Positions 891 to 41,578 of a DNA stretch of 45,218 bases are shown piece by piece. Source of the DNA: an uncultured archaeon (GTDB lineage Archaea; Asgardarchaeota; Thorarchaeia; Thorarchaeales; Thorarchaeaceae); assembly GCA_964610875.1 (NCBI GenBank), contig CAZSWP010000032.1, forward strand, positions 1-45,218, read 5' to 3'. Each line of letters opens with the position of its first letter. Position 1 is the stretch's first letter. The notes beneath the pieces are model-generated. The model was not told where the DNA came from and made no database searches. It saw only the letters and a program-made list of their open reading frames with translations. The position numbers were made by a program, and so were the translations under genes.

Positions 891-1214
891 TTATTCTGGT
901 TTCTCAGAGTCCTCCCTCTCTTTGTCTGAATATGCCTTGTGCGTTGCAGTCTTCTTCCTCTCTGTCTTCAGTCCTACGGGAAATGGTGCTTGAGAACCTC
1001 TTATCGTAGGAGTATACGAATAATCATACCCTCTTGTTCCCCCAAAACCATCAACTGAGTCTTCCTTTGGACTGGTCCTCTCAACCTTGGCAGATTGGGG
1101 TGAATTTCCAAAAGACAACGCTGCACAAATCATTACTATAGCAAAAAATACCACGAAAATGATGAGCTCTATTATTACGAATTGCATCATAGTTCTTCGT
1201 ATGAAATGATTCAT
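891..1214 (-). CDS. Small hypothetical membrane-anchored protein
   Basis: N-terminal TM (FVIIELIIFVVFFAIVMICAAL) followed by a hydrophilic low-complexity tail. Confidence 0.55.
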   Translation of the reverse strand: MNHFIRRTMMQFVIIELIIFVVFFAIVMICAALSFGNSPQSAKVERTSPKEDSVDGFGGTRGYDYSYTPTIRGSQAPFPVGLKTERKKTATHKAYSDKEREDSEKPE

Positions 1215-1242: not shown

Positions 1243-1432
1243 ATGGGTTTCTAACAGCTACATGAAACCTAGACAAACCCGGATATGTTATGAAGTATCT
1301 TATATCCTTTGATACGAAATGCTATCATAGGTCAATTGACACCGCTGTGCTGACCCCACGGAGTGACGTTCCAGTGCCGTCCCTAGACAGACAAAGCTCC
1401 GGTGTCCAGATCTGTCCAGCTTACAATGAACG
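1243..1432 (+). repeat. Copy A of a dispersed ~185-nt structured non-coding element (candidate ncRNA or MITE-like element)
   Basis: 1329-1431 aligns with the reverse complement of 40649-40750 at about 83/103 identities (manual); both copies also share the 5' motifs ATGGGTT, ACAGCT, CTAGACA and TCTTATAT. Confidence 0.85.
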
Positions 1433-1450
1433 ATTTGAACAAAGAAAAGA

Positions 1451-1536
1451 TGGCGCTGAGGGAGAGATTTGAACTCTCGAGCGGAAACCGCACTGGATTA
1501 GCAATCCAGCTCCTTACCAGGCTGGGATACCTCAGC
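1451..1536 (-). tRNA. tRNA-Ser(GCT), CCA encoded
   Basis: Cloverleaf with acceptor GCTGAGG/CCTCAGC, anticodon arm CTGGA-TTGCTAA-TCCAG, long variable arm, T arm GAGAG-TTCAAAT-CTCTC, discriminator G and CCA. Confidence 0.97.
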
Positions 1537-2701: not shown

Positions 2702-3017
2702 TGCGACGGCTCCTCTATTTCGGGTGTCGTTATTCGGCGGGCAGATCAGTGCATTTCTCAGAGCAGCTACCTCTGAGGCTCCACCACTCTCCCTTAGAGC
2801 TGTTCCCGCCAGGGCCTGACTCGGTTCGGGAGTCTGAGCAAGCTCACAACTGTCCTACGACCGTTGCTGCCGCCGTGACAGACTTCAGAGACCGCTCGTC
2901 AACGTCTTGCAACTGGACCCACCGAGGTCCCGGTTCACTCTCAATGTTGGTTACTGGCTCCGGTTATTGCCATACCGGTCACAGGCCGCGGCAAACGGCC
3001 CAGCCCTACCCGTCGCA
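2702..3017 (-). ncRNA. ffs: Archaeal signal recognition particle (7S) RNA
   Basis: Ends pair (TGCGACGG/CCGTCGCA); Alu domain with UGUGA motif and complementary loops (UUGCC/GGCAA); helix 6 GUAG tetraloop; helix 8 CAGGCCC-N4-GGGAACAGC; ~316 nt. Confidence 0.92.
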
Positions 3018-40220: not shown

Positions 40221-40646
40221 ATGAAACCCTGGTGGCCTAGATTTATTGTCAAACCGAGAGTTCGCCTAACACGTGCCCGTTTTAGCACACCCACAAGACC
40301 ACCTGATATCATAATCTTTGGTCTACTATTCATAATGGTGCTATTCATACTGGGTGGTAACATTTATACTCTTGTTCGAACTCCACCGGCTATCGCAGGC
40401 AGTCAATCTGGCGCACCCATTTTGATTTACCCGGGAATTGATGCACAGCTAGGATTAGAAGGGATTGTAGCTTCAGTCCTTATTCTGATGGGTACAATTG
40501 GTCTTGGGCTGCTTTATTATTCCTCAAAATACGTATTCCAACCAGGATATGCTACAAGACTGTTGATTCTTGGAATGGTAATTACTGGAATCACTATCCT
40601 AATCTTTGGATACTTCTTTGGAATTAAAACTAGACTATTTGAATAA
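40221..40646 (+). CDS. OST3/OST6-family oligosaccharyltransferase subunit, DC2/OSTC-like
   Basis: 3 TM; GGNIY.LV..PP.I and Q..LEGIVAS.L..MG.IG match DC2/OSTC; no thioredoxin domain. Confidence 0.8.
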   Translation: MKPWWPRFIVKPRVRLTRARFSTPTRPPDIIIFGLLFIMVLFILGGNIYTLVRTPPAIAGSQSGAPILIYPGIDAQLGLEGIVASVLILMGTIGLGLLYYSSKYVFQPGYATRLLILGMVITGITILIFGYFFGIKTRLFE

Positions 40647-40647
40647 C

Positions 40648-40830
40648 TGTTCATTGTCAGCTGGACAGACCTAGACACCGGAGTTTTGTCCTTCAAGAGA
40701 CAACACTGAACACAACTCCGTGAGGCCAGCACAACGCTGTCAGGTGACCTGGTTTTTTCCTGAGGTATATAAGACTCCTCCCAAAAATGTCTAGTTTTAT
40801 CTATAATTTTCGCAGCTGTAAGCAACCCAT
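40648..40830 (-). repeat. Copy B of the dispersed ~185-nt structured non-coding element
   Basis: Homologous to 1243-1432; fills the whole gap between two convergent stop codons. Confidence 0.85.
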
Positions 40831-40831
40831 T

Positions 40832-41578
40832 CTATTTTTGGACTAGGGATTCCCCAACCTTTCTTATGTAGAGTAGATTTGTAGTTAGTGAAAGTTCTTT
40901 GAGTAATTTTTCAGCTATAGTGAGCTTCATGAGTTTCCTAGATGATCCTTGGCAGTGTTCAGAGTGACCTGGTTTTGACCAACGTCCTACTATTTCACCA
41001 AAGTCCATTCCTATGAGTATTATTCGTTTTGGATTATAATGGGATACAATGTAAGCCGCCCGGTCACCATCAGTAAATCCTCCCCAAAGGAATACATTAT
41101 GAAGTGGTTCAACCTGAGTACTACCTAATACATTCCCAAGCTTGACAACATACTTCTCAAGTAATGGTATATTGTCACCATGCCCATGAACAATTGTGAT
41201 TGTGCCACTTTGTGATGCATTGTAAATATCTTCGAATTTTCCATCCAAATCAGTCACAAGTAAATCACATTGTATGTTTCTCTCTATGAGTGCAGTCACT
41301 GCGCCATCTGCTGCTACAATATATCGATGTTCAAGTTCAGACCTGTCCTTCAAATTGTCCAGAGTTACTCCCAGTGAGGGTCCTGCACCACATACAATCA
41401 CATCCTTTCCCACAATTTCGTTCTCTAGATTCTTCAATACCAACTTGAAATCGGTTCCTTCCAATAATGAACTAAGAATTGAGGTTGCCTTTCTATCGTC
41501 ATTTGAATTCAATCCTAATTGTTCAACAATCCACTCATAATGTGGTTTCCAATCAGTCCAATACATCAAATGACTCAC
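40832..41578 (-). CDS. mptE: 6-hydroxymethyl-7,8-dihydropterin pyrophosphokinase (archaeal type)
   Basis: GAGPSL, AADGA, VTDLDG, HGHGDN, GGFTDGDRA, GMDFG. Confidence 0.92.
   Translation of the reverse strand: MSHLMYWTDWKPHYEWIVEQLGLNSNDDRKATSILSSLLEGTDFKLVLKNLENEIVGKDVIVCGAGPSLGVTLDNLKDRSELEHRYIVAADGAVTALIERNIQCDLLVTDLDGKFEDIYNASQSGTITIVHGHGDNIPLLEKYVVKLGNVLGSTQVEPLHNVFLWGGFTDGDRAAYIVSHYNPKRIILIGMDFGEIVGRWSKPGHSEHCQGSSRKLMKLTIAEKLLKELSLTTNLLYIRKVGESLVQK

What the first reader, a model, noticed from the sequence alone, without database searches (positions are those of the whole stretch)
1243..1432. Unannotated ~185-nt structured non-coding element present twice in the window (copy A)
Seen: 1329-1431(+) and 40649-40750(-) align at about 83/103 nt, and upstream motifs (ATGGGTT, ACAGCT, CTAGACA, TCTTATAT) recur in order with variable spacers. 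Differences mostly keep helices: GGUCA/UGACC vs GGUCA/UGGCC, CGGAGU/GCUCCG vs CGGAGUU/AACUCCG, GUC-8nt-GAC in both, and long-range CUAGACA/UGUC(C/U)AG. G-U pairs favour A(+)/B(-) as the RNA strand. A 1-nt indel argues against a coding role. It matches no tRNA, SRP, RNase P, C/D sRNA or riboswitch that I recognise. Inference: a new multi-copy structured RNA family, or a non-autonomous mobile element.
Basis: partly seen in the sequence, partly recalled or inferred. Interest (0 to 1): 0.88.

Follow-up and report, generated by a model that had tools for sequence, protein, structure and literature searches.

The report
Gene-less IS607 mini-transposon carrying TnpB guide RNA
The two look-alike stretches are old copies of a roughly 190-base, gene-less miniature transposon of the IS607 family, present about 50-60 times in this Thorarchaeota genome, whose right half encodes the folded scaffold of a TnpB guide RNA; this is a known kind of selfish element, not a new class of RNA.

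Summary
Copy A (1245-1434, +) and copy B (40828-40646, -) are two of 44 full-length copies, plus about 30 partial hits (most of them contig-end pieces), in this 3.75-Mb genome. The element has sharp ends: [T/A]GGG|TTG... and ...AATGAACGG|T. The same genome holds the autonomous parent, an 8.6-kb IS607-like element. It encodes an IS607 serine-recombinase TnpA, a giant ORF and a 731-aa TnpB whose 3' end overlaps the same right end.

The short element consists of:
- a left end with two CTAGACA repeats;
- a conserved TATA-like box;
- a ~105-nt RNA scaffold of three helices, with a pseudoknot next to the boundary.

Covariation across about 30 genomes is strong: 92% of cells paired, against 30-53% in slid controls, and 15 of 18 pairs show double changes. 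A model built mainly from the short copies hits the 3' end of all 10 large tnpB genes tested.

There is no Rfam match, and no RNA data could be obtained. Both window copies are diverged and have a mutated GG crossover dinucleotide, so they are probably immobile fossils.

Verdict: a new member of a known kind (standalone omega-RNA mini-IS). This scan already reached the same reading on another piece of this genome (e1-5563348).

The parts
1244..1247 (+). Copy A: left-flank T plus GGG. This is the target / TAM-like motif; its last GG is the left crossover dinucleotide.
   Evidence: Across 44 copies, positions 0-2 are G in 43/41/41 and position -1 is A or T in 37. It matches the TGGG target/TAM of an IS607 IStron (10.1101/2023.11.20.567912) and the GGG TAM of ISXfa1 (PMC10711439).
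1245..1434 (+). Copy A: whole mini-IS607 element, from GGG to the fixed right-flanking T (190 nt).
   Evidence: Family alignment with flanks shows sharp ends. nhmmer E = 1.6e-49. Nearest other copy is only 83% identical.
1248..1290 (+). Copy A: left end. It holds ACAGCT, the subterminal repeat CTAGACA (1269-1275) and a degenerate second repeat 10 nt further on.
   Evidence: Aligns with the left ends of both autonomous elements on C18. The two 7-nt repeats at 10-nt spacing are inverted relative to the right end.
1298..1307 (+). Copy A: TATA-like box (TCTTATATCC), the putative archaeal promoter of the RNA.
   Evidence: A TATA-like hexamer starts 26-31 nt upstream of helix 1 in the gene-less copies of most genomes sampled. 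It is absent where the right end lies inside tnpB. Transcription was not tested.
1329..1434 (+). Copy A: TnpB guide-RNA (omega/reRNA) scaffold. H1 is 1330-1334/1351-1355. H2 is 1359-1364/1396-1401. H3 is 1370-1374/1383-1387. Pseudoknot a is 1338-1343 with 1401-1406. Pseudoknot b is 1377-1381 with 1429-1433, weakened here by a G-to-A change.
   Evidence: Model R1 scores 109.6 bits, E = 1.3e-25. Covariation.
1403..1419 (+). Copy A: right-end subterminal repeats TGTCCAG x2 at 10-nt spacing, the inverted partners of the CTAGACA repeats.
   Evidence: the repeat finder D2. Conserved in all copies.
1432..1433 (+). Copy A: right crossover dinucleotide, mutated to GA (the family has GG).
   Evidence: 43 of 44 copies have G at each of the two positions; the two exceptions are the two window copies.
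1435..1454 (+). Copy A: flanking sequence that would be read as the guide. It runs towards the 3' end of tRNA-Ser(GCU), which lies on the opposite strand at 1451-1536.
   Evidence: Inferred from the IS607 reRNA architecture (PMC10711439). tRNA. No TAM-adjacent second match in the genome.
40646..40828 (-). Copy B: whole mini-IS607 element (183 nt). It is wedged between the stop codons of two convergent ORFs, 40832..41578(-) and 40221..40646(+).
   Evidence: nhmmer E = 1.5e-39. ORFs. Nearest other copy is 75% identical.
40765..40774 (-). Copy B: TATA-like box (TCTTATATAC).
40646..40750 (-). Copy B: guide-RNA scaffold. Right-end repeats lie at 40677-40671 and 40667-40661. The crossover dinucleotide is mutated to AG (40648-40647). 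The fixed flanking T is 40646.
   Evidence: R1 scores 96.6 bits, E = 2.2e-22. In pseudoknot b the G-to-A change at the boundary is matched by C-to-U in the H3 loop.
40788..40804 (-). Copy B: left-end subterminal repeats (ATAGATA, then CTAGACA).

Best explanation
Each copy is a gene-less deletion derivative of an IS607-family transposon, a mini-IS also describable as a MITE or PATE-like element.

Its left ~45 nt and right ~30 nt carry the inverted 7-nt subterminal repeats and the GG crossover dinucleotides. The element's serine-recombinase TnpA, supplied in trans by the 8.6-kb autonomous copies, would use these to excise the element as a circle and re-insert it at [T/A]GGG sites.

Between the ends lies a TATA-type promoter followed by a ~105-nt RNA. 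This is the scaffold of the guide RNA (omega/reRNA) of the element's large TnpB nuclease. It has three helices, and a pseudoknot ties the last five or six scaffold bases (AACGG plus the fixed flanking U) to the apical loop of helix 3.

Transcription would run across the right boundary, so the next ~16-20 bases of host DNA become the guide. TnpB loaded with this RNA would cut the empty GGG-plus-guide site left after excision, and recombinational repair would put the element back.

Shown here: the ends, copy number, parent element, RNA covariation, strand, and linkage of the RNA to tnpB.
Inferred: transcription from the TATA box, loading onto TnpB in trans, and homing.

The two window copies are old (83% and 75% identical to their nearest relatives). 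Each has one G of the right GG mutated, so they are probably no longer mobile, though they may still be transcribed.
For: 1. Copy number and ends: 78 nhmmer hits, 44 full length, with sharp ends and unrelated flanks. Four subfamilies of 7, 6, 5 and 3 copies are at least 99% identical, which indicates recent mobility.
2. Autonomous parent with the same ends at C18:16148-24730. Its TnpA passes the NCBIfam IS607 transposase equivalog (175.5 bits, cut-off 110). Its 731-aa TnpB-like protein has an intact D-E-D triad and CxxC pairs, and ends 25 nt before the right end. A second, diverged copy lies at C18:60599.
3. Ends [T/A]GGG|... and ...ACGG|T match the published IS607 rules: GG crossover, TGGG/GGG TAM, scaffold ending in CGG, and a fixed right-flanking nucleotide (10.1101/2023.11.20.567912; PMC10711439).
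4. Filled versus empty site: the copy at C2:111376 interrupts a nitronate-monooxygenase gene (PF03060, 148 bits, profile positions 25-330). An uninterrupted paralogue at C3:18205 reads straight through ...GAT GGG CC CATAC....
5. RNA structure: 92.4% of cells paired, against 30-53% with slid partners. 15 of 18 pairs have double changes. 0 of 500 shuffles reach the observed values.
6. Strand: 61 G-U cells against 24 A-C cells.
7. Pseudoknot b is complementary in 38-40 of 43 sequences, with one compensatory change, found in copy B.
8. Model R1, built from 43 short copies plus one tnpB-linked right end, gives exactly one hit overlapping the 3' end of the large tnpB, on its strand, in 10 of 10 loci; 9 of these are from other genomes.
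9. Co-occurrence: R1 is found in 30 of 41 genomes of the family and the large TnpB in 25 of 41. All 25 genomes with the TnpB also have R1.
10. The TATA-like box sits at a fixed distance only in the gene-less copies.
11. No guide has a second TAM-adjacent match elsewhere in the genome, as the homing model expects.
Against:
- The TnpB is distant from curated models (guided_TnpB 56.5 bits, below the cut-off of 100). Its predicted structure is poor (pLDDT 63, pTM 0.37), although the listed top 50 Foldseek hits are all Cas12, TnpB or Fanzor structures.
- Pseudoknot b is nearly invariant, so covariation can hardly test it. Pseudoknot a overlaps a recombinase repeat and rests on a home-made duplex scan (5.3 against 4.4 +/- 0.14).
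- The covariation alignment was fitted to the model, which favours the model's structure.
- Five genomes have R1 hits but no intact cognate TnpB with this query. G010, for example, has 46 hits and only remnants.
- Both window copies carry a mutated GG, and copy A has a weakened pseudoknot b.
Confidence: 0.87

Rival explanations
1. A host small-RNA gene family. On this view the ~105-nt RNA, driven by its own TATA promoter, has been taken over for a cellular job, such as guiding a domesticated nuclease-dead TnpB or acting as an antisense regulator of neighbouring genes. The transposon origin would then be history only.
For: The promoter-like box is conserved only in the gene-less copies. Old copies such as A and B still keep the helices. 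Some genomes hold many copies without an intact cognate TnpB.
Against: Near-identical subfamilies, insertions into genes and intact GG ends show current selfish mobility. The guide regions are simply the local flanks. None of 59 guides has a second site next to GGG, and all 65 extra 12-mer seed matches but one (a 19/20 match, no GGG upstream) end within 12-16 nt. Helices kept in old copies can be inherited from master copies without any selection in place.
Confidence: 0.06
2. A DNA-level repeat only. On this view the conserved 3' part serves as recombinase binding sites or a cruciform, and no functional RNA is made.
For: The CTAGACA/TGTCYAG repeats are clearly DNA-level inverted repeats. Single-sequence folding is not better than shuffles. 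No transcript data are available.
Against: IS607 recombinases act on double-stranded DNA and need no hairpins (10.1101/2023.11.20.567912). Fifteen of 18 pairs show compensatory changes. Wobble pairs are 2.5 times more frequent on one strand, which DNA symmetry would not give. The same structure sits at the 3' end of every large tnpB tested, where TnpB guide RNAs are known to lie.
Confidence: 0.05
3. A new kind of self-removing insert, intron-like. On this view copies inside genes are tolerated because the RNA folds and is spliced out, as in IStrons.
For: About 7 of 44 copies interrupt long open frames. IS607 elements fused to group I introns exist (10.1101/2023.11.20.567912).
Against: No group I or group II intron model matches. 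190 nt is too short for a ribozyme core. The inserted DNA is 187 nt, so it shifts the reading frame. An earlier follow-up in this scan rejected the intron reading for the same family (e1-5563348).
Confidence: 0.02

Closest known systems
IS607-family transposons with TnpB and right-end guide RNA (ISXfa1 of Xylella fastidiosa, PMC10711439; Clostridium botulinum IS607 IStron, 10.1101/2023.11.20.567912)
   Same: Serine-recombinase TnpA with a MerR-type HTH. GG crossover dinucleotide at both ends. GGG / TGGG next to the left end. Guide-RNA scaffold overlapping the tnpB 3' end and ending in ...CGG plus a fixed flanking nucleotide. Three stem-loops plus a pseudoknot between the guide-adjacent bases and an apical loop.
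   Different: Here most copies have lost all genes and carry a TATA-type archaeal promoter directly upstream of the scaffold. The parent is 8.6 kb, with a ~1800-aa ORF between tnpA and tnpB, and the TnpB is 712-731 aa rather than about 400. The host is an Asgard archaeon. There is no group I intron.
Standalone, mobilised omega-RNAs and PATE-like gene-less IS200/IS605 elements (Altae-Tran et al. as summarised in PMC10691335; Geobacillus stearothermophilus elements in PMC10055086)
   Same: Short elements with both transposon ends and a guide-RNA scaffold but no protein gene. Many copies per genome. Presumed to be mobilised by TnpA and used by TnpB in trans.
   Different: Those examples are mainly IS605-type, with a Y1 transposase, single-strand hairpin ends and a 4-5-nt target. 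These are IS607-type, with a serine recombinase, double-stranded recombination and a GG core. They are archaeal, and the promoter-like box is conserved across a whole family of genomes.
Classical MITEs (deletion derivatives of DDE transposons)
   Same: Size (~190 nt), high copy number, no coding capacity, inverted repeats near the ends, and subfamilies of identical copies.
   Different: No true terminal inverted repeats and no target-site duplication beyond the shared GG. The ends are asymmetric. The element carries a functional-looking RNA gene.

Membership tests
IS607-family transposon (non-autonomous derivative) | An autonomous relative with the same ends encodes a small serine recombinase TnpA (HTH plus resolvase catalytic domain). 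| tested here: met
   L031:719-1339 scores 175.5 bits on NF033518 transpos_IS607 (cut-off 110). Pfam finds Resolvase plus HTH_17/MerR. The left end aligns with the short copies.
IS607-family transposon (non-autonomous derivative) | Matching GG crossover dinucleotides at the left and right boundaries, with no longer target duplication. | tested here: met
   Met for the family: G in 41-43 of 44 copies at each position, and the filled/empty comparison agrees. Not met by the two window copies themselves: copy A has GA and copy B has AG at the right end.
IS607-family transposon (non-autonomous derivative) | Insertion next to a G-rich target ([T]GGG) that doubles as the TnpB TAM. | tested here: met
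   GGG is nearly invariant, and position -1 is A or T in 37 of 44 copies. TAM use by TnpB was not tested.
IS607-family transposon (non-autonomous derivative) | Excision as a circle and re-integration catalysed by TnpA. | not testable with these tools
   Only indirect evidence: identical copies at different loci and an uninterrupted paralogous site.
TnpB guide RNA (omega-RNA / reRNA) | Encoded at the right end, overlapping the 3' end of tnpB on the same strand. | tested here: met
   R1 gives one hit at the 3' end of the large tnpB in 10 of 10 loci, extending 30-45 nt past the stop codon.
TnpB guide RNA (omega-RNA / reRNA) | Conserved secondary structure supported by compensatory changes on the transcribed strand. 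| tested here: met
   92.4% paired; 15 of 18 pairs with double changes; 0 of 500 shuffles; G-U 61 against A-C 24.
TnpB guide RNA (omega-RNA / reRNA) | Pseudoknot between the bases next to the guide and an apical loop. | tested here: inconclusive
   CCGUU in the H3 loop is complementary to AACGG at the boundary in 38-40 of 43 sequences. A sixth pair involves the fixed flanking base (A-U 10, G-U 28, G-C 4). Both sides are almost invariant, and there is only one compensatory change.
TnpB guide RNA (omega-RNA / reRNA) | Transcribed, bound by TnpB, and directing TAM-dependent DNA cleavage. | not testable with these tools
No assay was possible.
TnpB / Cas12 superfamily (the parent's 731-aa protein) | RuvC D-E-D triad with a zinc finger, and a TnpB-like fold. 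| tested here: met
   Motifs GADRG, YFENL, HADVNAARN and CxxC...CxxC are present. Pfam Cas12f1-like_TNB scores 50.9 bits (cut-off 26.3). The listed top 50 Foldseek hits are all Cas12, TnpB or Fanzor. However, NCBIfam guided_TnpB is below its cut-off (56.5 against 100), and the model quality is low.
Any curated Rfam family | Score at or above the family's gathering threshold. | tested here: not met
   The whole window at gathering thresholds gives only SRP RNA and two tRNAs. The permissive scan of 1150-1500 gives nothing inside the element.
Classical MITE | Terminal inverted repeats and a target-site duplication. | tested here: not met
   The inverted repeats are subterminal (17 nt, 88%). The termini are asymmetric, and only the GG is shared.

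The most novel reading that the evidence does not exclude
The gene-less copies are more than passengers. Because each carries its own promoter, the 50-70 copies per genome could form a dispersed library of guide RNAs. This library might be used in trans by the oversized TnpB (possibly together with the conserved giant protein encoded beside it) or by the family's nuclease-less TnpB remnant, for something other than homing, for example gene control or defence in Thorarchaeota.
Probability: 0.06. Interest if true: 0.75.

Novelty: new member of a known kind. Interest (0 to 1): 0.3.

Why it matters
This explains a conspicuous repeat that fragments Thorarchaeota assemblies: about 25 contig ends of this genome fall inside it. 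It removes a tempting 'new RNA family' or 'new intron' reading.

It also gives a clean archaeal example of an IS607-type mini-element in which a guide-RNA gene has acquired its own promoter. There are enough diverged copies (about 700 hits in 30 genomes) to define the RNA structure by covariation.

That RNA model, together with the cognate 712-731-aa TnpB, is a ready starting point for testing an Asgard RNA-guided nuclease. The unusual 8.6-kb parent, with a conserved giant gene next to tnpB, is the more novel object and deserves its own study.

Tried and rejected
- Rfam at gathering and permissive thresholds: no family matches the element.
- Single-sequence folding on both strands: not better than shuffles, so thermodynamics alone says nothing.
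- H/ACA or C/D guide RNA (considered because of the ...ACA near the 3' end): rejected, because the sharp transposon ends, the parent IS and the lack of a pocket or box architecture explain the conservation.
- IS200/IS605 (Y1) origin: rejected, because the parent's TnpA is a serine recombinase and the ends carry GG rather than a 4-5-nt target plus hairpins.
- Aloposon: rejected. Those integrate at tRNA genes and carry tandem 3000-6000-aa genes (PMC8813620).
- Search for trans targets of the 59 guides: 65 extra 12-mer seed matches, none next to GGG; all but one (a 19/20 match without GGG upstream) extend no more than 16 nt.
- Giant ORF: no Pfam or NCBIfam hit even at E = 5. The protein-atlas look-alikes (Mrr-type nuclease plus STAND NTPase clusters, scores 0.79-0.82) are below the level that counts as evidence.
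- Structure of the large TnpB: low confidence. It was used only to confirm the superfamily.

Full report
**Observation.**
The 3' ~105 nt are about 81% identical. The upstream motifs ATGGGTT, ACAGCT, CTAGACA and TCTTATAT recur in the same order. Rfam finds only an archaeal SRP RNA (2704-3015, -) and two tRNAs in the window, and nothing in the element even at permissive thresholds. Folding either copy alone is no better than shuffled sequence.

**It is a high-copy element with sharp ends.**
- A search of the window's own genome (3.75 Mb, 124 contigs; the window is contig C32) found 42 BLAST matches.
- After iterating nhmmer there were 78 hits, 44 of them full length.
- Most partial hits are 50-55-nt pieces at contig ends, so the repeat breaks the assembly. 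The true number is roughly 50-60.
- Aligned with 40-nt flanks, all copies start at GGGTTG... and end at ...CAATGAACGGT, with unrelated DNA outside.
- Base counts: GGG in 41-43 of 44 copies, A or T before it in 37 of 44, and GG then T at the right end in 43 of 44 each.
- Four subfamilies of 7, 6, 5 and 3 copies are at least 99% identical. Copy A's nearest relative is 83% identical and copy B's is 75%.

**The parent element.**
- Internal 5'-only and 3'-only hits led to C18:16148-24730. There the same left end is followed by a 206-aa protein with a MerR-type HTH and a resolvase domain, then a 1838-aa ORF on the other strand, then a 731-aa protein with a Cas12f1-like TNB domain that runs to 25 nt before the same right end.
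- The first protein passes NCBI's IS607 transposase equivalog (175.5 bits, cut-off 110).
- The 731-aa protein has RuvC motifs GADRG / YFENL / HADVNAARN and two CxxC pairs. It matches TnpB and Cas12f models only below their cut-offs. In a low-confidence fold, the listed top 50 hits are all Cas12, TnpB or Fanzor structures.
- A second, diverged copy (TnpA 70% and TnpB 43% identical) with the same three-gene order starts at C18:60599 and runs off the contig.

**Agreement with published IS607 rules.**
For a Clostridium IS607 IStron, TnpA needs a GG core dinucleotide, prefers TGGG targets, TnpB uses a TGGG TAM, and the guide-RNA scaffold ends in ...UCGG (10.1101/2023.11.20.567912). For ISXfa1, crossover is between GG dinucleotides and the TAM is GGG. 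Its right-flanking nucleotide is fixed and belongs to the scaffold. The RNA has three stem-loops plus a pseudoknot between the guide-adjacent bases and an apical loop (PMC10711439).

The present ends, [T/A]GGG|TTG... and ...AACGG|T, fit these rules point for point.

A filled/empty comparison supports the exact junction. The copy at C2:111376 sits in a nitronate-monooxygenase gene: the downstream half hits PF03060 at 148 bits over profile positions 25-330. The sequence reads ...AAT GGG [element ... GAACGG] TC CATAC..., whereas a paralogue at C3:18205 reads ...GAT GGG CC CATAC... without interruption.

**Anatomy of the short element.**
- Left end: two CTAGACA repeats 10 nt apart.
- Right end: two TGTCYAG repeats 10 nt apart. 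Together with the left-end repeats they form a 17-nt, 88% complementary subterminal inverted repeat.
- Between the ends: a purine-rich stretch and a TATA-like box whose first T lies 26-31 nt upstream of helix 1. This holds in the gene-less copies of most genomes sampled. The box is absent where the right end lies inside tnpB coding sequence.
- In the parent, the region corresponding to helix 1 encodes the RuvC-III motif, and the rest encodes the TnpB C-terminus. The short copies therefore keep the last ~105 nt of tnpB as RNA rather than as protein.

**RNA structure.**
RNAalifold on 44 sequences predicts three helices with compensatory changes. I built a covariance model, R1, from these.

R1 finds 55 matches in this genome and matches in 30 of 41 genomes sampled from the same family, up to 67 per genome. 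BLASTN found nothing in 16 genomes outside the family. In the other genomes most of the best hits are again complete ~190-220-nt gene-less elements.

On an alignment of 43 hits from about 30 genomes (caveat: fitted to the model):
- 92.4% of cells form standard pairs, against 30-53% when partners are slid by 1-3 columns;
- 15 of 18 pairs show changes on both sides;
- none of 500 shuffles reaches the observed values;
- wobble pairs number 61 on the proposed strand, against 24 A-C cells that would be wobbles on the other strand.

Two pseudoknots are possible.
- (a) GACAC in the helix-1 loop with GUGUC after helix 2. The mean best duplex is 5.3, against 4.4 +/- 0.14 for shuffled loops. Covarying cases are GACAUC/GAUGUC and AACACA/UGUGUU.
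- (b) CCGUU in the helix-3 loop with the terminal AACGG. This is complementary in 38-40 of 43 sequences. A sixth pair to the fixed flanking base reads A-U 10, G-U 28, G-C 4. This is the published TnpB-type pseudoknot. It is almost invariant, so covariation cannot really test it, although copy B shows C-G changed to U-A.

**Linkage to TnpB.**
R1 was built from 43 short copies plus one tnpB-linked right end. It gives exactly one hit overlapping the 3' end of the large tnpB, on its strand, in all 10 loci tested, nine of them from other genomes. The large TnpB occurs in 25 of 41 family genomes, and all 25 also have R1. Five genomes have R1 only. One of these, G010, has 46 hits but only a fused TnpA/TnpB remnant with these queries. 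A scan of named genome records finds this TnpB only in Thorarchaeota/Promethearchaeota and unnamed archaeal MAGs.

**Mechanism.**
The best reading is the known selfish circuit. TnpA, supplied in trans, moves the mini-element through GG recombination. The element's RNA, read across the boundary into the flank, guides TnpB to the empty GGG-plus-flank site so that repair restores the element (PMC10055086, PMC10691335). In line with this, the 59 guide regions match only their own flanks: 65 extra 12-mer seed matches were found, none next to GGG, and all but one (a 19/20 match without GGG upstream) extend no more than 16 nt.

**The two window copies.**
- Copy A lies 31 nt upstream of the start of a 107-aa minus-strand ORF (891..1214) and 16 nt from the 3' end of tRNA-Ser. 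Its second left repeat is degenerate. Its right GG reads GA, which also breaks one pair of pseudoknot b.
- Copy B is wedged between the stop codons of two convergent ORFs. It lacks 8 nt between the TATA box and helix 1, and its right GG reads AG.
- These are the only two of 44 copies with a mutated core. Mismatched core dinucleotides abolish excision in the Clostridium system. Both are therefore probably immobile fossils that may still be transcribed.

**Novelty.**
Standalone mobilised omega-RNAs and PATE-like gene-less elements that encode guide RNAs are already described. An earlier follow-up in this scan reached the same reading for another copy in this genome (e1-5563348), and my independent analysis agrees.

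What is new is modest: an IS607-type (rather than IS605-type) version in an Asgard lineage, a conserved promoter-like box, and an RNA not represented in Rfam. The 8.6-kb parent, with a conserved giant gene beside an oversized TnpB, is the more unusual object.

Noticed in passing
L031:649-9231 (G000:C18:16148-24730) and L047 (G000:C18:60599 to the contig end): The autonomous parent is an 8.6-kb IS607-like element. A 1764-1838-aa ORF with no Pfam or NCBIfam hit lies on the opposite strand between tnpA and an oversized (731-aa) tnpB. Its N-terminal ~430 aa are found divergently upstream of the large tnpB in 7 of 9 loci from other genomes. Weaker homologues sit beside three more distant tnpB-like genes of this genome (C78, C3, C37)..
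   Followed up: partly
L026:1249-2575 (G000:C2:111376-111566): A recent copy interrupts a nitronate-monooxygenase (PF03060) gene after about 42 codons. After computationally removing the element, about 7 of 44 copies lie inside stop-free frames of 270-470 codons. A sizeable share of insertions therefore appears to disrupt genes.
   Followed up: partly
Genome-wide, e.g. C51:2-54, C37:2-53, C86:1-55, C41:32841-32894: About 25 contig ends stop 50-55 nt inside this element. The repeat is a main cause of fragmentation in this assembly, so copy counts from MAGs are underestimates.
   Followed up: no
G010 (same family, 98% complete), e.g. G010:C81:166301-166743: This genome has 46 matches to the RNA model. 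With my queries it shows only a fused remnant of TnpA (107 aa) and the TnpB C-terminus (54 aa). This may be a population of orphaned mini-elements, or they may be served by a TnpB my query cannot see.
   Followed up: partly
window 1451-1536 (-) and 2704-3015 (-): tRNA-Ser(GCU) and the archaeal SRP RNA (99.6 bits) lie just downstream of copy A. Copy A's would-be guide runs antisense into the tRNA's 3' end.
   Followed up: no
L005:1647-1656 and window 1382-1392: A left-end-like motif (CCTRGACAGAC / AGACAAAGCT) recurs inside the right end. It overlaps the 3' strand of helix 3 and could form an alternative hairpin with the first TGTCCAG repeat. That hairpin is not conserved in other subfamilies.
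   Followed up: partly
G000:C13:57416-57884: Two copies of different subfamilies sit head to head, 55 nt apart.
   Followed up: no
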